Shown here in pieces: positions 2,610 through 44,041 of a stretch of DNA of 64,000 nucleotides. Numbering within the stretch: the stretch's first letter is position 1; every line of letters begins with the position of its first letter. Below the pieces are notes generated by a model that had not been told where the DNA came from, did not search any database, and worked only from the letters and a program-made list of their open reading frames with translations. Made by a program: the position numbers and the translations under genes. Source of the DNA: an uncultured Enterobacteriaceae bacterium (GTDB lineage Bacteria; Myxococcota_A; UBA796; GCA-2862545); assembly GCA_964655065.1 (NCBI GenBank), contig CAZZLC010000019.1, positions 1 to 64,000 of the forward strand. The letters are read 5' to 3'.

Positions 2610-3664
2610 GTCAGGTTCTCCTTCGTTTCGAGGCGGTAGAAGCGCTGGGCATTGCCGGCAAACAAGGCCTTGCGTTCTGCCTCGGTGCGGTCGGCGGTGA
2701 TGCGATCGAACGCACCGTACAGCGTCGCCAGCGAGGTGGAGACCTTGTCCATCGGAAAGTTGGACGCGAAGGAGCACCGGTCGGGGCCGAAGAGGCCGAG
2801 GGCGAAGCGTACGTGCGGACCGAGGAGCTCGGCCAGCGCATCGGCGTCGATGGGCTCGCGCGTGTGCAGTCCGAAGCCCAGGATCGGCATCAGGAGCCCG
2901 GAGAGCTTCAGGTGCACGTGGGGCAGCTCGGCGAGGGCGGCCAGATCGTCGCGCCAGCGCGCCTCGATGTCGGCGCGCTCGCGGTCGGGCAGGCCTCCGA
3001 ACGGCCCACCGAGGCCGATCGGGGTCCCGACGTGGTCCAGGATGACCCGGGTGTCGGGGTAGGCCGCGGCGACCTTGCGGAACGCCGCGAGCTGGTGGCT
3101 GTACATCCACGCGTCGAACGTCAGGTCTCGTTCACCGAGTCTCGCGTAGCCCCGGTGCCAGGCCGGGTTCGACAGCAGCTCGGGGTCCGGGGTCCAGTCG
3201 TGGATCCCGCGGTGAGGGCTACACGACAGCTTGTGGCGGACCCCGCGAAAGCGGGGGCTCGCAGCCAGGTGAGCGTCGAGCAGGGCGTCGAGGTGCGGAT
3301 ACGCCAGATCAGCGGCCCCGACGATGCCCAGGAGGAGCCCGTGGTCCTCGAGCCCCTCGAGCCAGCGGGTCTCTGCCGCGACGGCGAGCGCATCGCGGGC
3401 CTGCCAGCTCGCCTCGACGTGCACCACCCCGCGGATGTCGAGGTCGGCGACGTCCTGACGGTAGTGGGGGGGCAGGTAGTCGGCCGCGACATGGTCGACC
3501 TTGCCGACGAAGTCGAGGGCCGCCTTGGGGAACAGGACACTGGCGGCTCCCCGGGCGACCCGCCGCGACCAGGCGTAAAGCGTCGCCAGCGGGCTCGCAG
3601 CGCGCGGCGTGCTCCGCGGGGCCCACAGGTGGACGTGCGGGTCGATGATGGGCGGCATAGCCAT
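2606..3664 (-). CDS. amidohydrolase-2 family metal-dependent hydrolase (TIM barrel)
   Basis: N-terminal 'IDPHVHLW' metal-binding motif and 'ILDHVGTP' are typical of PF04909 amidohydrolases. ATG start at 3664; stop overlaps the acyl-CoA dehydrogenase start. Confidence 0.8.
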   Translation of the reverse strand: MAMPPIIDPHVHLWAPRSTPRAASPLATLYAWSRRVARGAASVLFPKAALDFVGKVDHVAADYLPPHYRQDVADLDIRGVVHVEASWQARDALAVAAETRWLEGLEDHGLLLGIVGAADLAYPHLDALLDAHLAASPRFRGVRHKLSCSPHRGIHDWTPDPELLSNPAWHRGYARLGERDLTFDAWMYSHQLAAFRKVAAAYPDTRVILDHVGTPIGLGGPFGGLPDRERADIEARWRDDLAALAELPHVHLKLSGLLMPILGFGLHTREPIDADALAELLGPHVRFALGLFGPDRCSFASNFPMDKVSTSLATLYGAFDRITADRTEAERKALFAGNAQRFYRLETKENLT

Positions 3665-3858
3665 CTCGGGCCTCCAGAGTCGAGCGTCCAGCTTACCGGA
3701 GGTGGCCGAGGCCTCGCGCCACCCGCTGGGCTGACAGCGATGTCGCGGTTCCCCGATGTCGAGCTGGGGCGCAGCTCGTGAGGATCGGGTTCGGCAGCGC
3801 TGGAACGGTCCTTGCTTGGCCGAGCATGACCACGAAACGGACAGGGAGGACGTGCGAC

Positions 3859-5496
3859 ATGATGTGGACCCTTCTCACGGCGCTCGGGACCGACGCCTTC
3901 GCGTGCGGCGGATTGTTCTGCAACGTCGCCCAGCCGGTGGTGCAGAACGCCGAGCGCATCGTCTTCGACGTCGATCGGGACGAAGGACTCGTCGAGGCGC
4001 ACGTCCAGATCAGCTACGAGGGCCCCTCCGAGGAGTTCGCGTGGGTGGTTCCCGTCGCCACGGAGCCCGATCTGTTCCTCTCGAGCCAGGCCCTGTTCGA
4101 CACACTCGCGGTGCAGACCGCCCCGCAGTTCCGGCTCGACGTGATCGAAGAGGGCGACTGCCGCTCTGGCAACGGAGGCTTCATCGGCGTGCGCGGAGGC
4201 TCCGAGGACTTCTTGGCGCCCGAGTCCCCGCAGGCCGACAGCGGCGGGGTGGTGGTCGTCGCCCAGGCCAAGGTGGGCCCTTACGAGACGCTCACCCTGC
4301 AGGCGAACTCCTCGACCGAGCTCCTCGAGTTCCTCCAGCGCAACGCCTACGACCTGCCCGACGACCTCGACCCCGTCCTGCGGCCCTACGTGGCCGACGG
4401 CGCCTACTTCGTCGCCCTCCGTCTCTCGAAGAACAACGACGCAGGCGACATCGCCCCCCTCGGGATGAGGTACGCGGGCGAGAAGGCGAGCATCCCGATC
4501 CAGCTCACCTCCATCGCAGCGGCCGACGACCTGCGCCTCGAGGTCTACGTCTTCTCGGACGTCCGCGCCGTGCCCGAGACCTACCTGCACGTCCAGATCA
4601 ACGACGCGGCGATCGACTGGTGGAACGCAGGGCAGAACTACCCCGACGTCATCACGCAGGCCGCCGACGAGGCTGGCGGCCGCGCGTTCGCGACCGACTA
4701 CTTCGGTGACGCGCCGGGTGGCTACACCATCGACCCAGGGCTCGAGGGGCGCCTGCGCGCGGCGGAGACGGGCTCGCAGTGGGTGAACATCGCGCTGTTC
4801 GAGACTGGCGTGGCCATCAACGAAGAGATGGCGGGAGTCATCGCCGAGGCGGTCGGGCTGCCGGCGAGCATCGACCCGATCGACTTTGCGAACTGCCCCG
4901 ATTGCTTCGGGGACTGGAGTCAGGGCCCCGAGCTCGACACTGCGGCCGCGACCGACCTGTATGCCGAGTTCGTCATCGAGCCGCTGGTCGAGGCGGAGGA
5001 TCTGTTCGATCGTCGCCGGCTCACCCGGATGACCTCGTCGCTGTCGGCCAACGAGATGACGGAGGACCCCGTCTTCGCGCTCAACCACGACATGGACGAC
5101 GAGGAGGACTTCGTCTCCAACGTCCGCACGGCCGAGCTCGTGTACGACTGCGAGGGCGGAAAGCTCCGGAACCGGGCCGAGCGTCGGCTCATCCTCTCGG
5201 ATGGTCGCGCGATCTACCTGCCGAGCGAGAAGTGGATCGTGGACAACCAGACCTCCGAGTTCGAGCTCATCTCCGAGCTCGGGGCCACCAAGGCCAAGAT
5301 CATCGAGCGCACCGGCGAGTCGGGGGAACCCGAGATCATCCGCGACTTCACGAACCGCCTGTTCGACCTCGTCGATCAGCACAACGCGAACCTGCTCGCG
5401 AGCTGTGCGGGTTGTCGCGTGGGGACCGGCGCGCCGGGGCTGGGCGTGCTCGGGTTGCTGCTCGCGGTGGTGGGGCTGCGTCGCCGGGGTCGTTAA
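3859..5496 (+). CDS. secreted DUF2330-like protein with MYXO-CTERM-like C-terminal sorting tail
   Basis: ATG at 3859 is preceded by a GGGAGGA RBS. Signal peptide 'MMWTLLTALGTDAFA' is followed by a CGGLFC motif. The composition is non-biased and Asp/Glu-rich. The C-terminus 'SCAGCRVGTGAPGLGVLGLLLAVVGLRRRGR' combines a Cys pair, a Gly-rich stretch, a TM segment and an Arg cluster. Confidence 0.75.
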   Translation: MMWTLLTALGTDAFACGGLFCNVAQPVVQNAERIVFDVDRDEGLVEAHVQISYEGPSEEFAWVVPVATEPDLFLSSQALFDTLAVQTAPQFRLDVIEEGDCRSGNGGFIGVRGGSEDFLAPESPQADSGGVVVVAQAKVGPYETLTLQANSSTELLEFLQRNAYDLPDDLDPVLRPYVADGAYFVALRLSKNNDAGDIAPLGMRYAGEKASIPIQLTSIAAADDLRLEVYVFSDVRAVPETYLHVQINDAAIDWWNAGQNYPDVITQAADEAGGRAFATDYFGDAPGGYTIDPGLEGRLRAAETGSQWVNIALFETGVAINEEMAGVIAEAVGLPASIDPIDFANCPDCFGDWSQGPELDTAAATDLYAEFVIEPLVEAEDLFDRRRLTRMTSSLSANEMTEDPVFALNHDMDDEEDFVSNVRTAELVYDCEGGKLRNRAERRLILSDGRAIYLPSEKWIVDNQTSEFELISELGATKAKIIERTGESGEPEIIRDFTNRLFDLVDQHNANLLASCAGCRVGTGAPGLGVLGLLLAVVGLRRRGR

Positions 5497-5505
5497 CCCA
5501 CCGGG

Positions 5506-6510
5506 GTGACGCCCTCGCCGCCGGTTCGGGAGCGGTGGCTGTCGGTCGCGCCCATGATGGACGTCACGGACCGCCACTTCCGCTTCTTCGTACGCCAGCT
5601 GACCCGCCACACCCTCCTCTACACGGAGATGGTGGTGGCGCAGGCCTTGGTGCACGGAGACCGCGCTCGGTTCCTCGCCTACGACCCGTGCGAGCACCCT
5701 CTCGCGCTGCAGCTCGGCGGTGACGACCCCGCGATGCTCGCGGACTGCGCGGTCATGGCCGAGGACCATGGCTTCGACGAGGTCAACCTCAACGTGGGGT
5801 GTCCGAGCTCTCGGGTCCAGGCCGGGCGGTTCGGAGTGGTGCTGATGCGCGATCCTGACCGCGTAGCCCAGGTCGTGGCTGCGATGAAGTCCCGGGTGTC
5901 GGTGCCCGTGACCGTCAAGCACCGCATCGGGCTCGACGAGCTCGACCGCTACGAGGACATGAGGGGGTTCGTCGACCGCGTGGCCGAGGCGGGGGCCGAC
6001 CGCTTCACGGTGCACGCGCGCAAGGCGTGGACCCAGGGGCTGTCCCCCAAGCAGAACCGGAACGTGCCTCCGCTGCGCTACGACGACATCTACCGGCTCA
6101 AGGCAGAGCGGCCCGACCTCGTCATCGAGATCAACGGCGGCATCCTGGCCCCGGCGGATGCCAAGGCCCACCTCACCCGGGTCGATGCCGTGATGATCGG
6201 ACGCGGCGCCCGCGACGACCCCTATCGGTTCGCTACCGCCGACCAGGAGCTCTTCGGGTCCCCGAGACCCGTGGTGTCGAGGGAGGCGGTCGCCCGGGCC
6301 ATGCAGGACTACCTGGACCGGACGCTCGCGGCGGACCCACACTGCAAGCCGCACCACGTCACCCGACACCTGGCCCCGCTCTACGCGGGGCAGCCCGGAG
6401 CCAAGCTCTGGCGGCGGACGCTCGCCGAGAGCACCCAGTCGGGTCCCCGGGCCATCGCGGAAGCACTGGCGGCCCGTCGCGACCGGGTCAGCTCCCTGAC
6501 GACCCCTTGA
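5506..6510 (+). CDS. dusA: tRNA-dihydrouridine synthase A
   Basis: Near-collinear with E. coli DusA. Shared stretches include 'SVAPMMDVTDRHFR', 'LLYTEMV', 'LQLGG.DPA', 'NLNVGCPS' and 'HARKAWTQGLSPKQNR'. GTG start at 5506. Confidence 0.9.
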   Translation: MTPSPPVRERWLSVAPMMDVTDRHFRFFVRQLTRHTLLYTEMVVAQALVHGDRARFLAYDPCEHPLALQLGGDDPAMLADCAVMAEDHGFDEVNLNVGCPSSRVQAGRFGVVLMRDPDRVAQVVAAMKSRVSVPVTVKHRIGLDELDRYEDMRGFVDRVAEAGADRFTVHARKAWTQGLSPKQNRNVPPLRYDDIYRLKAERPDLVIEINGGILAPADAKAHLTRVDAVMIGRGARDDPYRFATADQELFGSPRPVVSREAVARAMQDYLDRTLAADPHCKPHHVTRHLAPLYAGQPGAKLWRRTLAESTQSGPRAIAEALAARRDRVSSLTTP

Positions 6511-6847
6511 ACCGATCGTCTTCGTCGCGGAACAGGAAGTTGAAGGTGGTGAGCGAGCCGTAGCTGCGGGTGACGTAGACCTGCAGCTCGGCCTTGTCGG
6601 CCGGGTCGAGCTTGTCGTGGTTGTTGATCTTCTGCTCGAGCACGCGCAGCTTCTCGCGGACCGCGGTGATCTTCCTGAACAGGGTGTGGACGTCGATCTC
6701 CTTGACGGTGCGCCCTTCGCGGTCTCGGAACACGACGTGTCCCGTCACGAGCCGGCGGGACAGCTCGATCTCCCCGCCCCCGGCCTCGTCGCGGAGCGCC
6801 TGCTGCACCGCCTCCACCACCATCTCGAACATGTCGCTCGACTCCAC
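6488..6847 (-). CDS. hypothetical conserved small protein (114-119 aa)
   Basis: Non-biased, charged, protein-like composition. A likely ATG start at 6832 (MFEMVV...) has GGAG 9 nt upstream; a GTG at 6847 is the alternative. It lies 22 nt downstream of the mutH stop on the same strand. No family is recognised. Confidence 0.5.
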   Translation of the reverse strand: MESSDMFEMVVEAVQQALRDEAGGGEIELSRRLVTGHVVFRDREGRTVKEIDVHTLFRKITAVREKLRVLEQKINNHDKLDPADKAELQVYVTRSYGSLTTFNFLFRDEDDRFKGSSGS

Positions 6848-6869
6848 GACGCCTCCTCGATCACGGCGA

Positions 6870-7616
6870 TCACTTGGGTAACAGCAACGCTCGCGCCACC
6901 ACCGCGGCCGTGAACGAGGGGCGCAGGTAGAAGCCGCGAGGGTGATCGCGGACCCAAGCGGCCCGGTCGTCGAGCGCCCAGGTGCGCGCGCCCGCGTCGG
7001 CGGCCTTGGGGCGGACCTGCAGCGCCTTCCCGAGCTTGCCGTCGATGCGACTCAGATCCCCGAGAGCGACGAGCGCGTTGAACTCGCTCCAGTCGGCCTC
7101 GAGCTGCCGAGACTCCTCGGGGCTCGGCGTCCACAGGAACGCGGTCCCCACCCGTCGCTCCCCTGGCGCACCGTCGCCCACGATCGGTACCCAGAGCACG
7201 CGAGAAAGCTTGCGGCGTACCCAGCTGTCCGACCAGCTCCCGAGGTCGGCCGTGGAGAGCGGTGCCGTGCAGACGTAGGTCGACTGCCGGGGCCGGCCTC
7301 GGTCGTCGACGGGGATCGTCTTGAGCTCTACCCCGAGGTGGGGAAAGTCCGGCATGGCGCGAGAGGTGGCGGTGGCGCCCAGCGCGCGCTCGATCAGCAC
7401 CCCTGTCCACCCCTTGGCGCGGTGGAGCGTCGCGGGCACGGGCATGGCGTGGTTCCGCGCGATTGTGCCCAGCGGGTGCCCCGCGAGGGCCCGGGCGCGC
7501 GAGAGCAGCAACTCCTCGGACCGTGGCGGCGGCTGCTGCCCGACCGGGGCTTCGGAGTCCTTCACGACGTCCTCGAGTGATTCGTGTACGCTACGCGTCC
7601 ATCCGTTCACCGGCAA
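6870..7616 (-). CDS. mutH: DNA mismatch repair endonuclease MutH homolog
   Basis: Collinear with E. coli MutH over its whole length. Matching stretches include 'GVELKTIPVD', 'RVLWVPIVGDG..RRVG', 'LQVRPKAADAGARTWAL' and 'PRGFYLRPSFTAAVVA'. The ORF opens with TTG at 7616, but alignment suggests the real start is the GTG at 7565, giving about 231 aa. Confidence 0.8.
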   Translation of the reverse strand: MPVNGWTRSVHESLEDVVKDSEAPVGQQPPPRSEELLLSRARALAGHPLGTIARNHAMPVPATLHRAKGWTGVLIERALGATATSRAMPDFPHLGVELKTIPVDDRGRPRQSTYVCTAPLSTADLGSWSDSWVRRKLSRVLWVPIVGDGAPGERRVGTAFLWTPSPEESRQLEADWSEFNALVALGDLSRIDGKLGKALQVRPKAADAGARTWALDDRAAWVRDHPRGFYLRPSFTAAVVARALLLPK

Positions 7617-37830: not shown

Positions 37831-38412
37831 ATGACGGTGAGTGGCGTTCGAGCCAGGATTTTGGAGGAGGCCGTGCGGCTGTTCTCTCGCAACGGCTACG
37901 GCTCGACGTCGGTCCGCGAGGTCGCCGAGGCGGCCGGAATCACCAAGCCGACCCTCTATTATCACTTCGGCAGCAAAGAGGGCCTGTTCGAGGCGCTCAT
38001 CGACCACCACCTCACGGGCCTCGAAGCTCTCGTGGGCGAGGCGGTGACCTCGGCCGGGGGGGTGGTCGACCGCATCCGGACCTTCGCGAAGACCTACCTT
38101 CTCGGAGCCGCGGAGGAGGCCGATGCGCTGCGCTTCCTGCTCACCTGCAGCCTGCCGGACACCCGGGACAACGCAAACCCCCATTGTGGGGTGTTCGGGC
38201 GTGTCTTGCAAATCGTGACTCCGCTGCAGGACGTGATCCGCCAAGGAGTCACCAGCGGCGAGCTGCGGCGGGATCTCGATCCCGAAGTCGCGGTCTTCGC
38301 CCTCGTGGGTGCTCTCAACCTCCACCTCGCAGCGGCCCTCGAAGGTCGCGCGGTGCGAGGCGACACCGTCGATTCGATTCTCAACCTCTGGTTCCGTGGA
38401 GTGGCGGCATGA
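37831..38412 (+). CDS. TetR-family transcriptional regulator
   Basis: N-terminal HTH 'ILEEAVRLFSRNGYGSTSVREVAEAAGITKPTLYYHFGSKEGLF'. Stop overlaps the start of the membrane-fusion-protein gene (ATGA). Confidence 0.85.
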   Translation: MTVSGVRARILEEAVRLFSRNGYGSTSVREVAEAAGITKPTLYYHFGSKEGLFEALIDHHLTGLEALVGEAVTSAGGVVDRIRTFAKTYLLGAAEEADALRFLLTCSLPDTRDNANPHCGVFGRVLQIVTPLQDVIRQGVTSGELRRDLDPEVAVFALVGALNLHLAAALEGRAVRGDTVDSILNLWFRGVAA

Positions 38413-39491
38413 TCCCGCTCGTGCTTTCTTTTTTCGCAGGGTGTGCCGTCAATGCCGAGCAGGCATCGAACACGGTGACGCCGGGGAAGCTCGCTTCAGC
38501 GACCGCCGCCCGCGTCGAGGTCGTGGTCCTCGAGTCGGGTGAGGCCAAGCTGGAGCTCGACCTGCCCGGCGAGGTCGGAGGCGAGCGTGACGCGAACCTC
38601 GCCGCGGCCAACGGCGGCTACGTCGAGCAGGTGTTCGTGTCCGACGGCCAGGAAGTCACGGCTGGCCAGGTCCTCGCCTACATCGACGCCTCGCTCTACC
38701 GGGCCCAGCTCGACCAGGCCACCGCGCAGCTCGAGCAGGCGGAGGCCGAGCTCTCGCGAGTCGAGAAGCTCGGCGACCTCGCCAGTCAAGCCCAGATCGA
38801 CGGTGTCACGACCCAGGCCAAGGTCTCCCGCGCGTCGCTCCGGCAAGCCCAGACCCGGCTCGCCCGAGCCGTCATCCGCGCGCCGTTCAGCGGGGTGGTG
38901 GCCGATGTGGCCGTCGAGGCCGGCGAATCCGTGGGACCGGGCACGCCGGTGATTCGCGTGGTCCAGCTCGACCCCGCGGTGGTGAACCTCTCAGTCGCCG
39001 ACCGAGACGTCGTCTCGCTCGAGCGGGGCATGCCGGTCGAGGTCACCGCCGCGTCGCGGTCCGAGACGTTCGACGGCACCGTCTCCCGGGTCTCGCCCGT
39101 CGCCGACCTGCGCACCCGTTCGTTCCCCGTCGAGGTCGAGGTCCCGAACGAGCGACGGCTCCTGCTGCCGGGCATGATCGCCCGGGTGAAGGCCGAGCGC
39201 CCTCTGTTCGAGGACGCGATGGTCATCCCGCAGGACTGGATCGTGACCAAGCGGGACCGCCGCGGTGTCTTCGTGGTCGAGGAGAACACGGCGGTGTGGC
39301 GCGACGTGAAGCTCGGCGAGGTCCTGCACGATCGCGTGCTCGTCACCGACGGGCTGGCCGCCGGCGACCGGGTCGTGGTCACCGGTCACCGCGATCTGGT
39401 CGACGGCGACGCGCTCGTCGTCTCCCGCGAGGGCCGTTGCTGTAGCGACGGTCGCACCACCTTTGGCAACCAGGTCGAACGGGAGCCCTGA
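38409..39491 (+). CDS. efflux RND periplasmic adaptor (membrane fusion protein), lipoprotein
   Basis: ATG at 38409. Lipobox 'LSFFAGCAV', followed by a coiled-coil hairpin ('YRAQLDQATAQLEQAEAELSRVEKL'), a lipoyl/beta-barrel region and a C-terminal 'VVVTGHRDLVDGDALVV'. Confidence 0.85.
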   Translation: MIPLVLSFFAGCAVNAEQASNTVTPGKLASATAARVEVVVLESGEAKLELDLPGEVGGERDANLAAANGGYVEQVFVSDGQEVTAGQVLAYIDASLYRAQLDQATAQLEQAEAELSRVEKLGDLASQAQIDGVTTQAKVSRASLRQAQTRLARAVIRAPFSGVVADVAVEAGESVGPGTPVIRVVQLDPAVVNLSVADRDVVSLERGMPVEVTAASRSETFDGTVSRVSPVADLRTRSFPVEVEVPNERRLLLPGMIARVKAERPLFEDAMVIPQDWIVTKRDRRGVFVVEENTAVWRDVKLGEVLHDRVLVTDGLAAGDRVVVTGHRDLVDGDALVVSREGRCCSDGRTTFGNQVEREP

Positions 39492-42400
39492 TGCGTTCCG
39501 CCATCCACTGGCTCGTCACGCACCCCACCACGATCGCGATTGCAGCGATCTGCGTCTTCCTCTTCGGGCTCAACTCCTACGTGAGCCTGCCGCGGGAGTC
39601 GTCGCCCGACATCACGATCCCCGTCGTGATCGTCACGACGCCGTACGTGGGGGTTTCGCCCGAGGACATCGAGTCCCTCGTCACCGTTCCGATGGAGAAC
39701 GAGCTCGCCTCGCTCAAGAACACCAAGGAGATGAGGTCGACGTCGGCCGAGGGCATCTCGATCGTCGTCATCGAGTTCGAGCCCGACACCGTGGTCGAGG
39801 ACGCCCTGCAGCGCGTCCGTGACCGGGTGGGACGGGTGCGTCCGACCTTGCCGGCCGACGCCGAGGATCCCTCGGTGCGGGAGATCTCGTTCTCCGACGT
39901 TCCGGTCGTGCTCATCACGCTCGCAGGACCGGTCGGCGAGGCGAAGCTGAAGGAGCTGGCCGAAGACCTCCAGGACGACCTCACTCGGGTGCCCGGGGTG
40001 CTCGAGGTCGAGCTGACCGGCGGCACCGAGCGCCAGATCACGGTGGAGGTCCTGCCCGAGCGGCTCTCGTACTACGGGTTCTCGCTCGACGACGTCACGA
40101 GCGCGATCAAGAACGAGAACGTCAACATCCCCGGCGGCAACATCGAGACCGGTCGCGGGAACTTCCTCCTCCGCACGCCCGGGGAGTTCGACGAGGCCCG
40201 CGAGGTGGAGCGCGTCGCGGTGAAGCGGGTCGGTGACCGTCCGGTGTTCGTCCGTGACCTCGCCCGCGTGGTCGACGGGTACGAGCCTCGGGAGACCTAC
40301 TCTCGACTCCGCGGCGAGGCCTCGGTGTCGCTCGCCATCAAGAAGCGGGCGGGCGCCAACATCCTCGACGTGACCACCATGGCCAAGGAGCTCGCCGAGG
40401 AGCATGCCCAGCGCTGGCCCGAGACCGTGAGCTGGCGAGCGCTCGGCGACCAGTCGAAGGCCATCCGCGACATGGTCAGCGACCTGCAGAACAACATCAT
40501 CACCGCCTTGCTGCTCGTCGTCGGCGTGATCGTGATGTTCATGGGCTGGCGACCGAGCGTGTTCGTGGCGGTGTCCATCCCGCTGTCGATGCTCGGCAGC
40601 ATGCTGGTGCTCGAGGTGCTGGGCTTCACGCTCAACATGGTGGTGCTGTTCAGCCTGATCCTCGCGCTGGGGATGCTCGTCGACAACGCAATCGTCGTCG
40701 TCGAGAACGTCTACCGTCACAAGGAGATGGGCAAGGACAACATCCAAGCTGCGGTCGACGGCACCGAGGAGGTCGCGGTCGCCGTCGCGGCGAGCACGGC
40801 GACGACCGTGGCCGCCTTCCTCCCGCTCGTGTTCTGGACCGGCATCATGGGCGAGTTCATGGGGTTCCTGCCCAAGACGGTGATCATCGTGCTGATGATG
40901 TCGCTCGTGGTCGCCGTGGGTGTGCTTCCCGTGTTGATGGGCCGGCTTCTGCCGCAGCAGGTGGACGCGAAGGACCTGAAGGACGGCGAGCTCCGCAACG
41001 CCGAGCTCGACCCGATCATGGACCGCTACCGGACGTTCCTCCGGAGCTCGATCCGATGGCGCTACTCCACGTTTGCCATCGGGGCCTCGGCCTTCCTCGT
41101 CACCTTCGGGATCTACTGGTTCCTCAACCACGGCACCGAGTTCTTCCCCTCGACCGAGCCCGAGCGAGCCATCGTGGGGGTGCAGCTGCCGCAGGGCTCC
41201 GATGTCGACACCACCGACCAGGTGGTGCGCGCCGTCGAGCTCGTGCTGGCTTCGGAGGCCAACGTCGACACCTGGGCGGCCGACGTCGGCGTGAGCTCGG
41301 GCGGAAACCAGCTGCAGGGCTCGAGCGCGCGGCCAAACGAGGCGCGCGTCACCGTCGACTTCCTCCCCGACCGGAACACCGCCAAGCCCGGCGAGGCCCA
41401 GCGTATCGAACCCACGTCGCTCACCGTCGACCGACTCCGCGCGAAGCTGCAGGAGCTGCCCGGGGCCAAGATCACGGTCGAGCCACAGGTCATGGGGCCG
41501 CCCGTCGGCAAGGACATCAACATCGAGGTCTCGGGCGAGGACTACGACGAGATCGGGGAGATCGTGCTCAAGCTGCGCCGCGAGCTCGAGAACACCGTCG
41601 CCGGACTCGCCGACGTCGACGACAACTACGGGGTGGGCCGACCCGAGCTGCGGCTGCGCATCGACCGCGGAGCCGCCAAGCGAGTCGGGGTCAGCACGGC
41701 GTCCATCGGCAACGCGGTCCGCACCGCCATCGCGGGCGGGGTGGCCACCACCCTGCGCGAGGGTGAGGACGAGATCGACATCGTGGTGCAGCTCACCCCG
41801 GAGTACCGGGAGGATCTGCAGCGCGTCCTCGATCTCCGTCTGCCCGGCCGCGAGGACACCAGCCCCGACACCTTCCCCGTGCCCATCTCCGCCGTGGCGT
41901 CCTACGAGCTCGTCGGAGGGTCGTCGGGCATCAACCACATCGACCAGGACATGGTCGTGACCATCACGGGCGACGTCGCCGAGGGCTTCAACGCCAACGA
42001 GGTCCGGGGCGACGTCCAGGCGTTCCTCGACGGGTACGACTTCCCGAGCGGGGTGACCACCGCCCTCACCGGGGCCAACGAGGAGCAGGACGAGTCGCTG
42101 CAGTTCCTGGTTCGAGCCTTCTTCATCGCCGTCGCGTTGATCCTGCTCGTCCTGGTGACCCAGTTCGACAGCATCACCATGCCGGCGATCATCCTCGCCA
42201 CGGTGGTGCTGTCGCTCATCGGCGTGCTGTGGGGGCTGCTGGTCACCGGGACGCCCTTCGGCATCATGATGACGGGGATCGGCGTCATCTCGCTCGCCGG
42301 GGTCGTGGTCAACAACGCGATCGTGCTTCTCGACTACGTGCAGCAGCTCCAGGGCAGGGGGCTCTCCACGGAGGAGGCGCTGGTCGAGGCGGGGCTCACC

Positions 42401-44041
42401 CGCTTCCGCCCCGTCATGCTGACCGCGATCACCACCGCGCTCGGGCTGCTCCCGATGGCGCTCGGCGCCTCGTTCGACTTCTTCGAGCTCAAGCTGATCC
42501 TGGGCAGCAACTCGGCGGCGTTCTGGGGCCCCATGGCGATTGCCGTGATCTTCGGGTTGTCCTTCGCGACGGTGCTCACCCTGGTGATGGTGCCCGTTCT
42601 GTTCAGCATCAACGAGGACCTTCGCCACCGCTTGTTCCCGCGCCGCGCCGCCGCGACCGTCGCGGCCGCGATCCCGTTCGCCCTGCTCGTGCTCGTGCCG
42701 AGCGACGCGCGCGCGCTCACGCTGGACGAGGCCTGGCGCGCGGCGGAGCAGGAAGACCTCTCGCTCCTCATCGCCAAGGAGGACCTGGTCCAGACGAGCA
42801 CCCTCGTCGGCCAGGCCTGGGCGACCCTGTCGCCGACCCTGGCGACCAGCGCGACCTACGTGATCAACAACCAGGAGATCGTGCTCGACTTCGACGCGAG
42901 CGAGCAACAGCGGCAGCTCGGCGAGGCGCTGAACCCCATCCTCGAGTCGGTCGGCCAGCCTCCCGCGCTGCCCACCGAGAACTGCGGCCCCAACGAGACG
43001 CCGGACGGCGATTTCTGCCTCGAGCAGGGCGAACCCATCGTCGTGCAGGAGCAGTTCTTCTGGCAGGGCGACATCACGCTGCGGCAGACCCTGTTCAGCG
43101 GCGCGGCGTTCCCCGCCCTGCAGTCCGCCCAGCGTCTCACCGCCGCTGCGCGAGCCGACGTCCGCGATGCCACGCTGCGCTCCAAGGCCAACGTGGCCCG
43201 AGCCTACTACGGGCTGCTCGCTGCCCAGCAGGGGGTCCGGGTGTCCGAGAAGGCGCTCGACCTGGCGACCGCGCAGCTCGAGCTCGCCCAGCGTCGGCGG
43301 GACGCCGGGATCACCGACCGTCGCGCGCTCGTGTCCGCGCAGCTCGGGGTCAGCCAGGCGCAGCGCGATCTCGAGTCCGCACGCGAGGGCCTGGTCGACG
43401 CCGAGACCTCGTTCGAGCTCCTCACCGGGCTGCGCGACCAGTCCCTCGAGATGCCTCCGCCCTTCGTGGTCCCCGCCGAGCTCGACTCGGCGGTGTCCAC
43501 GGCGCTCGCCCAGCGCCCCGATCTGCAGGCGGCCGAGCTCCGGGTCCGCGCCCTCAGGGCCGAGAAGGTCGCCCAGAGCATGCGGTGGATGCCGCGAATC
43601 GACGGTATCGGCTCGATCGACTTCACCCAGAACGTCGGGTTCAACGACCGGAACACGACCTGGCGCATTGCGCTCACCGCGTCCTGGGACATCTGGGACG
43701 GCGGGTTTCGCATCGCCGACCGGCGCAACGCCGCGAGCCGCATGCGGGCGGCGCAGTATGCCCAGCAACTCCAGGAGCGGCAGGCCGAGCGCGAGGTGAA
43801 GGTCGCGTTCGAGTCCCACCGTCGCGCCCTCGCGGCCGTGGTGGCGGTCGAGGACGAGCAGTCGCTCGCCGACGAGAACCTCCTGCTCACCGAGCGGAGC
43901 TTCGAGGCAGGCAGCGCGACCTGGCTCGAGCTCGAGCAGGCTCGGCTCCAGGTGGAGGCCACGGCGCTGTCGCTGCTCCAGGAGCGCACCGCCCGCGACC
44001 TTGCCGCGATCGACCTGCTGGTCCGGACCGGCGCCCTCTGA
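39491..44041 (+). CDS. RND efflux transporter (AcrB-like, 12 TM) fused in-frame to a TolC-like outer membrane factor domain (1516 aa)
   Basis: Residues 1-~1045 are a typical HAE-type RND pump, with conserved 'LGMLVDNAIVVVENV' and 'GVVVNNAIVLLDYV' TM4/TM10 blocks. Residues ~1053-1516 are collinear with OMF/TolC repeats ('LTLDEAWRAAEQEDLSLLIAKEDL...', '...DLAAIDLLVRTGAL'). No stop codon separates them. The junction segment 'RRAAATVAAAIPFALLVLVPSDARA' resembles a signal peptide. Confidence 0.85.
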   Translation: MRSAIHWLVTHPTTIAIAAICVFLFGLNSYVSLPRESSPDITIPVVIVTTPYVGVSPEDIESLVTVPMENELASLKNTKEMRSTSAEGISIVVIEFEPDTVVEDALQRVRDRVGRVRPTLPADAEDPSVREISFSDVPVVLITLAGPVGEAKLKELAEDLQDDLTRVPGVLEVELTGGTERQITVEVLPERLSYYGFSLDDVTSAIKNENVNIPGGNIETGRGNFLLRTPGEFDEAREVERVAVKRVGDRPVFVRDLARVVDGYEPRETYSRLRGEASVSLAIKKRAGANILDVTTMAKELAEEHAQRWPETVSWRALGDQSKAIRDMVSDLQNNIITALLLVVGVIVMFMGWRPSVFVAVSIPLSMLGSMLVLEVLGFTLNMVVLFSLILALGMLVDNAIVVVENVYRHKEMGKDNIQAAVDGTEEVAVAVAASTATTVAAFLPLVFWTGIMGEFMGFLPKTVIIVLMMSLVVAVGVLPVLMGRLLPQQVDAKDLKDGELRNAELDPIMDRYRTFLRSSIRWRYSTFAIGASAFLVTFGIYWFLNHGTEFFPSTEPERAIVGVQLPQGSDVDTTDQVVRAVELVLASEANVDTWAADVGVSSGGNQLQGSSARPNEARVTVDFLPDRNTAKPGEAQRIEPTSLTVDRLRAKLQELPGAKITVEPQVMGPPVGKDINIEVSGEDYDEIGEIVLKLRRELENTVAGLADVDDNYGVGRPELRLRIDRGAAKRVGVSTASIGNAVRTAIAGGVATTLREGEDEIDIVVQLTPEYREDLQRVLDLRLPGREDTSPDTFPVPISAVASYELVGGSSGINHIDQDMVVTITGDVAEGFNANEVRGDVQAFLDGYDFPSGVTTALTGANEEQDESLQFLVRAFFIAVALILLVLVTQFDSITMPAIILATVVLSLIGVLWGLLVTGTPFGIMMTGIGVISLAGVVVNNAIVLLDYVQQLQGRGLSTEEALVEAGLTRFRPVMLTAITTALGLLPMALGASFDFFELKLILGSNSAAFWGPMAIAVIFGLSFATVLTLVMVPVLFSINEDLRHRLFPRRAAATVAAAIPFALLVLVPSDARALTLDEAWRAAEQEDLSLLIAKEDLVQTSTLVGQAWATLSPTLATSATYVINNQEIVLDFDASEQQRQLGEALNPILESVGQPPALPTENCGPNETPDGDFCLEQGEPIVVQEQFFWQGDITLRQTLFSGAAFPALQSAQRLTAAARADVRDATLRSKANVARAYYGLLAAQQGVRVSEKALDLATAQLELAQRRRDAGITDRRALVSAQLGVSQAQRDLESAREGLVDAETSFELLTGLRDQSLEMPPPFVVPAELDSAVSTALAQRPDLQAAELRVRALRAEKVAQSMRWMPRIDGIGSIDFTQNVGFNDRNTTWRIALTASWDIWDGGFRIADRRNAASRMRAAQYAQQLQERQAEREVKVAFESHRRALAAVVAVEDEQSLADENLLLTERSFEAGSATWLELEQARLQVEATALSLLQERTARDLAAIDLLVRTGAL

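What the first reader, a model, noticed from the sequence alone, without database searches (positions are those of the whole stretch)
42620..42730. Signal-peptide-like segment embedded at the RND/OMF junction, with an in-frame TTG that could launch an independent OMF
The junction reads '...INEDLRHRLFPRRAAATVAAAIPFALLVLVPSDARA|LTLDEAW...'. A basic n-region (RR), an 18-residue hydrophobic h-region and an A-R-A cleavage motif sit exactly where a stand-alone OMF would begin. An in-frame TTG at 42632 would yield 'M-FPRRAAATV...', a textbook Sec signal peptide. Two routes are therefore possible: internal initiation in the same frame producing a free OMF, or signal peptidase I cutting the OMF off the fused pump after the 13th TM inserts. 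Both are unusual.
Basis: seen in the sequence. Interest (0 to 1): 0.7.

Follow-up and report, generated by a model that had tools for sequence, protein, structure and literature searches.

The report
RND pump–outer-membrane channel polyprotein

Summary
ORF 39491..44041 (+) is a full RND permease (Pfam ACR_tran, residues 8-1040) joined in frame to a complete TolC-like outer membrane factor (OMF, residues 1076-1516). Between them lie a basic loop (S1039-R1052), a 17-residue hydrophobic core (A1053-V1069) and P-S-D-A-R-A (1070-1075).

The fusion is not an artefact. About a dozen independent assemblies carry the same ~1500-codon stop-free ORF, and 28 fused proteins were retrieved in at least three OMF clades.

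In 28 non-redundant junctions of this clade, position -1 is Ala in 28/28, position -3 is small in 28/28 and position -6 is Pro in 21/28. The rest of the segment is the least conserved part of the protein. The predicted cut, ARA|LTLDEAW, aligns with the E. coli TolC junction SQA|ENLMQVY.

The TTG at 42632 is not conserved: the homologous codon is CTC or CTG in the two closest relatives. Five of 12 fused loci have no usable in-frame start. Its Shine-Dalgarno score is unremarkable.

Best reading: a polyprotein cut by signal peptidase I into a 13-helix pump and a free channel, as in the Bradyrhizobium cytochrome b/c1 precursor FbcH. Cleavage itself is inferred, not shown. I found no paper describing this architecture.

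The parts
37831..38412 (+). TetR-family regulator gene. Its TGA stop overlaps the next gene's ATG (ATGA).
   Evidence: Pfam TetR_N, E 4.4e-21; sequence read.
38409..39491 (+). Periplasmic adaptor (MFP) gene. The likely true start is ATG 38409, giving MIPLVLSFFAGC, a very short lipoprotein-type signal with no basic residues. Its TGA stop shares one base with the RND ATG (TGATG).
   Evidence: NCBIfam RND_mfp 229.8 bits, above the 94.9 cut-off; translation and sequence. The start assignment is my inference.
39491..42604 (+). RND permease part of the fused ORF (residues 1-1038), running through TM12.
   Evidence: Pfam ACR_tran residues 8-1040 on profile positions 5-1019 of 1021, E 2.5e-205. A profile of the family aligns to the C-terminal end of solved RND pumps such as MexK, MdtB and AcrB 685-1029 of 1049.
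42605..42646 (+). Basic loop after TM12 (S1039-R1052, SINEDLRHRLFPRR). Inferred to be cytoplasmic and to act as the n-region of the internal signal.
   Evidence: Four Arg and one His against two acidic residues. 27 of 28 fused homologues have at least 3 K/R here.
42614..42618 (+). GAGGA, Shine-Dalgarno-like, formed by the codons for E1042-D1043, ending 13 nt before the TTG.
   Evidence: Duplex energy -5.6 kcal/mol; 22% of background positions score as well or better; four putative starts in the window (called on ORF and Pfam evidence only) score -6.0 to -8.1.
42632..42634 (+). Judged an ordinary Leu codon.
   Evidence: The homologous codon is CTC in L001 and CTG in L006. There is no equivalent start in L001, L002, L006, L007 or L008.
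42647..42697 (+). Hydrophobic core (A1053-V1069, AAATVAAAIPFALLVLV): the h-region, or 13th transmembrane helix.
   Evidence: A 19-residue run free of D, E, K, R, H, N and Q, reaching into the c-region. AlphaFold predicts a helix at model residues 52-66 with low confidence. This is the least conserved part of the protein.
42698..42715 (+). c-region P1070-S-D-A-R-A1075. The predicted signal peptidase I cut lies between A1075 and L1076 (nt 42715|42716).
   Evidence: In 28 fused junctions, -1 is Ala in 28/28, -3 is A/S/T/V/G in 28/28 and -6 is Pro in 21/28. ARA|LTLDEAW aligns with the TolC junction SQA|ENLMQVY.
42716..44041 (+). Mature outer-membrane-factor part (L1076-L1516, plus the stop codon 44039-44041): a complete TolC-like protomer.
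   Evidence: Two OEP stretches, E 2.7e-45. AlphaFold mean pLDDT 84 with four strands and the long helices. Foldseek best match is TolC 9tg4_A, target TM-score 0.79.
42869..43051 (+). Insertion of about 60 residues between the first two barrel strands (inferred to be a surface loop), with Cys1165 and Cys1176.
   Evidence: Model residues 127-187 lie between strands 116-126 and 188-202. Present in the window, P0001 and P0002 and absent from P0003-P0005. Cys positions.

Best explanation
The gene encodes a polyprotein.

1. The ribosome makes one 1516-residue chain.
2. The 12 helices of the RND pump insert into the inner membrane and leave the chain end in the cytoplasm.
3. The basic loop S1039-R1052 stays inside. 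The hydrophobic segment A1053-V1069 inserts as a 13th helix pointing outward, and the Sec machinery threads the OMF part into the periplasm.
4. Signal peptidase I cuts after A1073-R-A1075.
5. The freed 441-residue OMF is then handled like any TolC-type protein: chaperones, BAM, trimer in the outer membrane.
6. The pump keeps the signal segment as an extra C-terminal helix.

The result is pump and channel in a fixed 1:1 ratio from one translation event, matching the 3:3 stoichiometry of the assembled machine. The adaptor comes from the overlapping upstream gene.

Shown here: the anatomy, its conservation, the conserved cleavage motif, and the lack of a conserved internal start. Inferred: membrane topology (by homology to AcrB), the cleavage itself, and the fate of the two products.
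For: 1. **The fusion is real and conserved.** Full-length or near-full-length stop-free ORFs of 1465-1674 codons joining the RND part to the OMF end occur in L001, L002, L003, L005, L007, L008, L009, L010, L011 and L013, from different studies. 28 retrieved proteins carry both an RND C-terminus and an OMF, including full-length P0040 (1524 aa), P0123 (1483), P0181 (1488), P0182 (1532) and P0184 (1550).
2. **The cleavage signature is conserved.** In 28 non-redundant junctions, -1 is Ala in 28/28 and -3 is Ala (19), Ser (6), Thr, Val or Gly. Position -2 is bulky or charged in 26 of 28 (Q, R, E, H, W, D; the other two are L and S). Position -6 is Pro in 21/28. Stand-alone relatives have A-x-A at the same column but no Pro at -6 (0 of 25), which suggests extra selection for cleavability in the fused forms.
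3. **The segment behaves like a signal peptide.** It is 34-40% identical to the more distant homologues (63% to L001, the lowest region there too), against 61-85% for the RND part and 77-90% for TM12, yet charge, hydrophobicity and the c-region are kept.
4. **The cut site matches TolC.** hhalign places ARA|LTLDEAW on SQA|ENLMQVY of E. coli TolC. That this is TolC's known cleavage site is established knowledge (22-residue signal). Pfam OEP position 1 falls two residues after the predicted cut.
5. **The OMF part is complete.** It has four strands and the long helices, with target TM-score 0.79 to TolC, so it looks built to sit in the outer membrane.
6. **There is no spacer.** No linker separates A-x-A from the first OMF helix. 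From the known AcrAB-TolC architecture, the OMF N-terminus lies well over 100 A from the inner membrane, so an uncut chain could not form a canonical pump (inference from established structures).
7. **Fused and stand-alone OMFs are interleaved** in a rough tree. This is expected if both states yield the same mature protein.
Against: - No experiment or proteomic data was available; cleavage is inferred.
- No dedicated signal-peptide predictor could be run, so the site call rests on rules and alignment.
- A-x-A is easy to find in Ala-rich, high-GC proteins, so the motif alone is weak. The case rests on its fixed position, the Pro at -6 and the alignment to TolC.
- An extra 13th helix on an RND pump has no characterised precedent that I know of.
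- In a second fused clade (P0085, P0101), a low-complexity spacer of about 60-80 residues follows the A-x-A site, so tethering is not physically excluded there.
- The tree is neighbour-joining without support values.
Confidence: 0.66

Rival explanations
1. Internal initiation. Ribosomes start at TTG 42632 inside the long ORF and make a free OMF precursor (M-FPRRAAATV...ARA) with its own N-terminal Sec signal. The fused chain is a by-product or is made in parallel.
For: The TTG is in frame. Initiation there would give a textbook n-h-c signal of 28 residues. A GAGGA lies upstream. Seven of 12 fused loci have some in-frame ATG/GTG/TTG in the loop.
Against: - The homologous codon is CTC in L001 and CTG in L006, so the TTG is a window-specific synonymous variant.
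- L001, L002, L006, L007 and L008 have no start codon upstream of the hydrophobic core.
- The other loci with a start codon have no SD-like sequence (energies +1.9 to -3.2).
- The window's SD score of -5.6 ranks 13th of 112 in-frame NTG codons, 22% of background positions are as good, and the spacing is 13 nt.
- By my rough estimate, Met in the loop (about 11 of 28) is close to what composition predicts.
- No convincing internal promoter: the one weak sigma-70-like match lies about 440 nt upstream, at 42165-42192.
Confidence: 0.1
2. Uncleaved fusion. The hydrophobic segment is a permanent 13th helix and the OMF part stays tethered to the pump, either non-functional or working in a non-canonical way.
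For: Cleavage was not shown. The uncharged runs (h-region plus c-region) are 12-28 residues, and the longer ones could serve as stable anchors. A second fused clade has a long spacer that would allow tethering.
Against: - Ala at -1 (28/28), a small residue at -3 and Pro at -6 (21/28) have no reason to be conserved in a plain anchor.
- The helix sequence itself is the least conserved region, which argues against specific packing.
- There is no spacer before the first OMF helix in this clade.
- The OMF part keeps all four barrel strands, and relatives exist as free OMF genes.
Confidence: 0.12
3. Artefact or decaying gene. The fusion comes from a sequencing or assembly error, or from a recent loss of a stop codon with no functional meaning.
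For: A related locus, L004, has separate genes with an ATGA overlap, where a single-base indel could fuse the frames. One related contig, L012, looks chimeric at exactly this junction.
Against: The same in-frame fusion appears in about a dozen independent assemblies spanning 43-77% identity over the junction+OMF query, with both halves well conserved, and in two further distant clades.
Confidence: 0.03

Closest known systems
Tripartite RND efflux systems (AcrAB-TolC, MexAB-OprM type) with TetR-family regulator
   Same: Same three components and gene order: regulator, adaptor, RND permease, OMF. The RND part matches ACR_tran end to end, the OMF part has the TolC fold, and the adaptor matches RND_mfp.
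   Different: The permease and the OMF are one polypeptide, so the OMF signal peptide is internal. A 2021 review of tripartite systems (PMC8277102), searched for 'fused', 'fusion protein' and 'gene fusion' in the first 300,000 characters held, mentions no such natural fusion. Scores fall below NCBIfam cut-offs for every named subfamily.
FbcH cytochrome b/c1 precursor of Bradyrhizobium japonicum (Thony-Meyer, James, Hennecke, PNAS 1991, 88:5001)
   Same: From my own knowledge of that paper: a polytopic inner-membrane protein whose C-terminus is cytoplasmic is followed in one ORF by an internal signal sequence and an exported protein, and the two are separated by cleavage at that signal. This is the closest mechanistic precedent.
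   Different: The proteins are unrelated, and the released part there stays at the inner membrane, whereas here it must travel to the outer membrane. I could only confirm that the reference exists, not read it.
E. coli TolC precursor
   Same: Non-lipoprotein OMF with an A-x-A site directly before the first helix. SQA|ENLMQVY aligns with ARA|LTLDEAW.
   Different: TolC is an orphan gene with an N-terminal 22-residue signal. Sequence identity is only about 15-19%. The window protein has an extra loop of about 60 residues with two Cys between the first two strands.
Viral polyproteins cut by host signal peptidase at internal signal sequences (bunyavirus and pestivirus glycoprotein precursors)
   Same: Alternating membrane segments and A-x-A-type sites let one chain yield several membrane or lumenal proteins (PMC7926653 and PMC5636883, as listed).
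   Different: These use the eukaryotic ER machinery. They are unrelated proteins and serve only as an analogy.

Membership tests
RND permease superfamily (Pfam PF00873, AcrB/AcrD/AcrF) | End-to-end match to the family profile | tested here: met
   Residues 8-1040 on profile positions 5-1019 of 1021, E 2.5e-205, 684.7 bits against a cut-off of 28.
RND permease superfamily (Pfam PF00873, AcrB/AcrD/AcrF) | Twelve transmembrane helices with both ends in the cytoplasm | not tested
   Inferred from full-length homology to AcrB-type pumps. No topology predictor was run.
Named NCBIfam RND subfamilies (RND_permease_2, CusA/CzcA, MdtB, MdtC and others) | Score above the curated cut-off | tested here: not met
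   Best hit is RND_permease_2 at 585.5 bits against a cut-off of 1250; all others are also below cut-off.
Outer membrane factor / TolC family (Pfam PF02321 OEP) | Two OEP repeats | tested here: met
   Two stretches, E 2.7e-45, 154.9 bits against a cut-off of 22.
Outer membrane factor / TolC family (Pfam PF02321 OEP) | TolC protomer fold: four barrel strands plus long helices | tested here: met
   AlphaFold mean pLDDT 84.2, with strands at 116-126, 188-202, 369-379 and 389-398 and helices of 66-68 residues. Foldseek hits TolC, OprJ-like, CusC and OprM at E about 1e-16, with target TM-score up to 0.82.
Outer membrane factor / TolC family (Pfam PF02321 OEP) | Signal peptide at the N-terminus of the translated protein | tested here: not met
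   The signal-like segment starts at residue 1039 of a 1516-residue chain.
NodT/OprM lipoprotein OMF subfamily | Lipobox with Cys at +1 | tested here: not met
   The mature end is LTLDEAW with no Cys near the site. TIGR01845 scores 72.2 bits against a cut-off of 210.
Sec-type signal peptide cut by signal peptidase I | Basic n-region, hydrophobic h-region, and a c-region with small residues at -1 and -3 | tested here: met
   RHR..RR, then 17 hydrophobic residues, then PSDARA. In 28 homologues, -1 is Ala in 28/28 and -3 is small in 28/28.
Sec-type signal peptide cut by signal peptidase I | Demonstrated cleavage | not testable with these tools
   Needs N-terminal sequencing or mass spectrometry.
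Polyprotein with internal signal peptide (FbcH type) | Polytopic membrane protein ending in the cytoplasm, followed in frame by a signal sequence and an exported protein | tested here: met
   The domain order is shown; the topology of the RND end is inferred by homology.
Polyprotein with internal signal peptide (FbcH type) | Two separate mature proteins found in the cell | not testable with these tools
   No expression or proteomic data.
Nested gene with internal translation start | Start codon and ribosome-binding site conserved in relatives | tested here: not met
   The TTG is replaced by CTC or CTG in the closest relatives. Five of 12 loci have no candidate start. SD scores are at background level.

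The most novel reading that the evidence does not exclude
A widespread, undescribed way of building tripartite efflux pumps. The outer-membrane beta-barrel channel is made as the C-terminal part of the inner-membrane pump and released by signal peptidase I at an internal signal peptide. This fixes pump:channel stoichiometry at 1:1 and leaves the pump with a 13th helix. Genomes have switched repeatedly between the fused and split states. As far as I know, this would be the first outer-membrane protein known to be born as part of an inner-membrane transporter polyprotein.
Probability: 0.55. Interest if true: 0.7.

Novelty: new variant of a known kind. Interest (0 to 1): 0.58.

Why it matters
**If cleavage is confirmed**, it shows that bacteria can couple the synthesis of an inner-membrane transporter and its outer-membrane partner in a single chain, using the ordinary signal peptidase as the separating enzyme. 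That gives a natural system for several open questions:
- how pump:channel stoichiometry is set;
- how an outer-membrane protein is handed from a membrane-inserted precursor to the periplasmic chaperones;
- whether an extra C-terminal helix changes RND pump behaviour.

**For genome annotation**, automatic pipelines name these ~1500-residue proteins inconsistently: as a pump alone, as a channel alone (truncated copies called 'outer membrane protein TolC'), or in one case as both. Signal-peptide predictors that look only at N-termini will miss the exported half.

**If cleavage does not happen**, the finding is only an odd domain fusion.

Tried and rejected
- **Exact look-up of the window protein** in public assemblies: not on record.
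- **First related-loci scan** with the 19-sequence alignment failed for lack of a conserved stretch. It worked after I reduced the alignment to six sequences.
- **phmmer of the OMF part against PDB sequences** gave only weak hits (OprJ-like at 1e-11) and did not cover the N-terminus. A profile search was swamped by RND hits. I fetched E. coli tolC and used hhalign instead.
- **Literature searches** for a natural RND-OMF fusion found nothing relevant. This is absence in the held library, not proof of novelty.
- **The FbcH paper** (PMC51795) is not held, so its content is cited from memory.
- **Promoter scan:** one weak sigma-70-like match at 42165-42192, about 440 nt upstream of the junction, not pursued. 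The scan covers only one promoter type.
- **My automatic cleavage-site picker** mis-set the site in P0009, P0011 and P0018 and shifted it by two residues in L005. I replaced it with a motif-anchored version.
- **Considered and rejected:**
  - Signal peptidase II: no Cys at the site.
  - Frameshift or readthrough: both halves are in one frame with no stop.
  - Initiation inside TM12: it would give a non-signal N-terminus.
Full report
**1. What is in the sequence**

The + strand carries one uninterrupted ORF, 39491..44041, of 1516 codons.
- Pfam matches the AcrB/AcrD/AcrF profile from end to end at residues 8-1040 (E 2.5e-205).
- Pfam matches two outer-membrane-efflux-protein (OEP) repeats from residue 1078 (E 2.7e-45).
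- NCBIfam agrees on both halves, but no named subfamily reaches its cut-off.

The upstream genes are packed tightly:
- A TetR-family regulator lies at 37831..38412.
- A periplasmic adaptor follows. Its likely start is ATG 38409 (MIPLVLSFFAGC...), which overlaps the TetR stop as ATGA.
- The adaptor's stop shares one base with the pump's ATG.

The junction reads S1039-INEDLRHR-L1048-FPRR-A1053...V1069-PSDARA1075 | L1076-TLDEAW.
- L1048 is the TTG at nt 42632-42634 and is in frame.
The only correction is that the hydrophobic core is 17 residues, not 18.

**2. Is the fusion real?**

Yes.
- A protein search with the last 50 residues of the pump plus the OMF found 35 relatives. Many cover the whole query, and eight carry both Pfam domains.
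- Genome and metagenome scans returned 13 loci. Ten are full-length or near-full-length stop-free ORFs of 1465-1674 codons in that reading frame, running from the RND part to the OMF stop or the contig end: L001, L002, L003, L005, L007, L008, L009, L010, L011 and L013. L006 is a fragment of another.
- These loci come from different studies: Myxococcota and 'Deltaproteobacteria' MAGs, marine and other metagenomes.
- An exhaustive HMMER search of 1.84 billion representatives, followed by a local BLAST classification, gave 28 proteins that hold both an RND C-terminus and an OMF. Full-length examples range from 1483 to 1550 residues.
- Public sources name them 'multidrug efflux pump', 'CzcA family heavy metal efflux pump', or in one case 'AcrB/outer membrane protein TolC'.

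**3. Relatives with separate genes**

- In L004 a pump gene (2843..6001) ends in TGA overlapping the ATG of a 424-residue OMF gene (5998..7272), with a GGGAG upstream. Its pump C-terminal tail differs visibly from the fused clade's.
- P0005 and P0016 are orphan OMF genes with no pump next to them.
- A rough neighbour-joining tree of 143 OMF domains places fused proteins in at least three clades. Within the window's clade, fused and free forms are interleaved. The tree has no support values, so I use it only to say that the two states have interchanged more than once.

**4. The junction behaves like a signal peptide**

- Across fused homologues the loop after TM12 holds at least 3 Lys/Arg in 27 of 28 cases. 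It is followed by an uncharged run of 12-28 residues.
- I anchored each sequence on the conserved first OMF helix (x-T-L-D/E-E-A). In 28 non-redundant junctions:
  - Position -1 is Ala in 28/28.
  - Position -3 is Ala 19, Ser 6, Thr 1, Val 1, Gly 1.
  - Position -2 is Q, R, E, H, W or D in 26 of 28; the other two are L and S.
  - Position -6 is Pro in 21/28.
- This is the classical signal peptidase I pattern.
- The 25 free relatives have A-x-A at the same column but no Pro at -6. I read that as extra pressure to keep the internal site accessible.
- Apart from these features the segment is the least conserved part of the protein:
  - It is 34-40% identical to the more distant homologues and 63% to L001, where it is also the lowest-scoring region.
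  - The RND part is 61-85% identical and TM12 77-90%.

**5. Where the cut would fall**

- I fetched E. coli K-12 tolC. Its product starts MKKLLPILIGLSLSGFSSLSQA-ENLMQVY.
- A profile of the window protein and its free relatives aligns to TolC with 96% probability. The alignment places ARA|LTLDEAW on SQA|ENLMQVY.
- That the 22-residue TolC signal is removed there is established knowledge.
- The alignment inside the signal region itself carries little weight. The register is set by the first helix.

**6. The OMF half is complete**

- An AlphaFold model of residues 1001-1516, built with the 19-sequence alignment, has mean pLDDT 84.2.
- It shows TM12 as a helix, the hydrophobic segment as a low-confidence helix, a break over the c-region, and then four strands and the long helices.
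- Foldseek finds TolC, OprJ-like, CusC, OprM and others at E about 1e-16, with target TM-scores up to 0.82.
- There is no spacer between A-x-A and the first helix. In known AcrAB-TolC assemblies the OMF N-terminus sits at the equatorial level of the periplasmic tunnel, far from the inner membrane.
- From those structures I infer that an uncut chain could not form a canonical pump.

**7. The TTG**

- In the two closest relatives the same Leu is encoded by CTC (L001) and CTG (L006).
- Of 12 fused loci with DNA, five have no in-frame ATG/GTG/TTG upstream of the hydrophobic core: L001, L002, L006, L007 and L008.
- The six other loci that do have a start codon show no SD-like pairing, with energies of +1.9 to -3.2 kcal/mol.
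- In the window, the GAGGA is the Glu-Asp codon pair and ends 13 nt before the TTG.
  - Its score of -5.6 ranks 13th of 112 in-frame NTG codons in this ORF.
  - 22% of background positions do as well.
  - Four putative gene starts in the window (called on ORF and Pfam evidence only) score -6.0 to -8.1.
- Internal initiation cannot be excluded for this one organism, but nothing singles the codon out, and it cannot be the family's mechanism.

**8. Mechanism proposed**

The chain is inserted as a 13-helix protein, with the basic loop holding the TM12-TM13 hairpin on the cytoplasmic side. The OMF part is translocated and signal peptidase I cuts at 1075|1076. The OMF then goes to the outer membrane, and the pump keeps the signal segment. 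Pump and channel are made 1:1.
- Shown: the anatomy, its conservation, the cleavage motif, and the absence of a conserved start.
- Inferred: topology, cleavage, and the fate of the products.

A plausible origin is a one-base change in an overlapping ATGA gene pair like that of L004. Such a change would join a basic pump tail to a minimal signal peptide. This is speculation.

**9. Comparison with what is known**

- The components are ordinary: a tripartite RND system under a TetR regulator.
- The architecture is not described in the 2021 Chemical Reviews survey of tripartite systems, as far as the held text goes. None of six literature searches found it either.
- The closest mechanistic precedent I know is FbcH of Bradyrhizobium japonicum, a cytochrome b/c1 precursor split at an internal signal sequence. 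I could confirm the reference but not read the paper.
- I rate the finding a new variant of a known kind, not a new kind of system.

**10. Verdict**

| Item | Verdict or confidence |
|---|---|
| Observation | Confirmed |
| Interpretation | Partly supported: the signal peptidase route yes, the TTG route no |
| Polyprotein-cleavage model | 0.66 |
| Internal initiation | 0.10 |
| Uncleaved tether | 0.12 |
| Artefact | 0.03 |
| Other (for example, a different protease) | Remainder |

Interest is 0.58. A specialist would find the architecture surprising and easy to test, but the key step is still inferred.

Noticed in passing
Proteins P0004, P0005, P0016, P0037, P0043, P0047, P0051, P0052, P0053, P0060 and others; loci L004 5998, L014 3870, L016 1994: Free OMF relatives of this clade have extremely short predicted signal peptides of 9-18 residues with no basic n-region (for example MLLLSSGYA|LTLEEAW and MLLVSSLALA|VTLEEAW). 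In three loci there is no in-frame start codon further upstream, so these are not gene-calling errors.
   Followed up: partly
window 38409-38444: The adaptor (MFP) of this operon also starts with a minimal signal, MIPLVLSFFAGC (lipobox-like, 11 residues before Cys, no basic residue). Its ATG overlaps the TetR stop (ATGA), and a terminator-like hairpin with a T-run sits at 38403-38435 across this start.
   Followed up: partly
window 42869-43051 (residues 1127-1187; Cys1165 at 42983-42985, Cys1176 at 43016-43018): An insertion of about 60 residues lies between the first two barrel strands of the OMF part, so it is probably a cell-surface loop. It has a predicted helix and two Cys that could form a disulfide. 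It is present in the window, P0001 and P0002 and absent from P0003-P0005.
   Followed up: partly
L012 535-2184: In a low-coverage seawater contig (2.5x), the OMF reading frame continues upstream into sequence with no resemblance to an RND pump (...VMPFDQINPVTGPIYVEGAEPGDVLKITLDSF...). The two are joined at TPALA|LTLEDA, matching L008 from that point on. This is probably a chimeric assembly.
   Followed up: no
Proteins P0085, P0101/P0182, P0113, P0148 (second fused clade); P0123/P0181 (third): Distant RND-OMF fusions (24-27% identity in the OMF part). In P0085 and P0101 the internal A-x-A site is followed by a low-complexity spacer of about 60-80 residues rich in Ser, Thr, Asp and Gly before the OMF starts. 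P0123 has a possible lipobox-like LLLTC in the segment.
   Followed up: partly
Protein P0028 (607 aa): The precomputed Pfam domains list TetR_N together with OEP in one protein. This could be another fusion within this kind of operon, or a merged gene call.
   Followed up: no
Fused junctions, position -6 relative to the predicted cut: Pro at -6 occurs in 21 of 28 fused junctions and in 0 of 25 free relatives, whose few prolines fall at -5 or -4. This may mark a requirement for cutting an internal rather than an N-terminal signal.
   Followed up: partly
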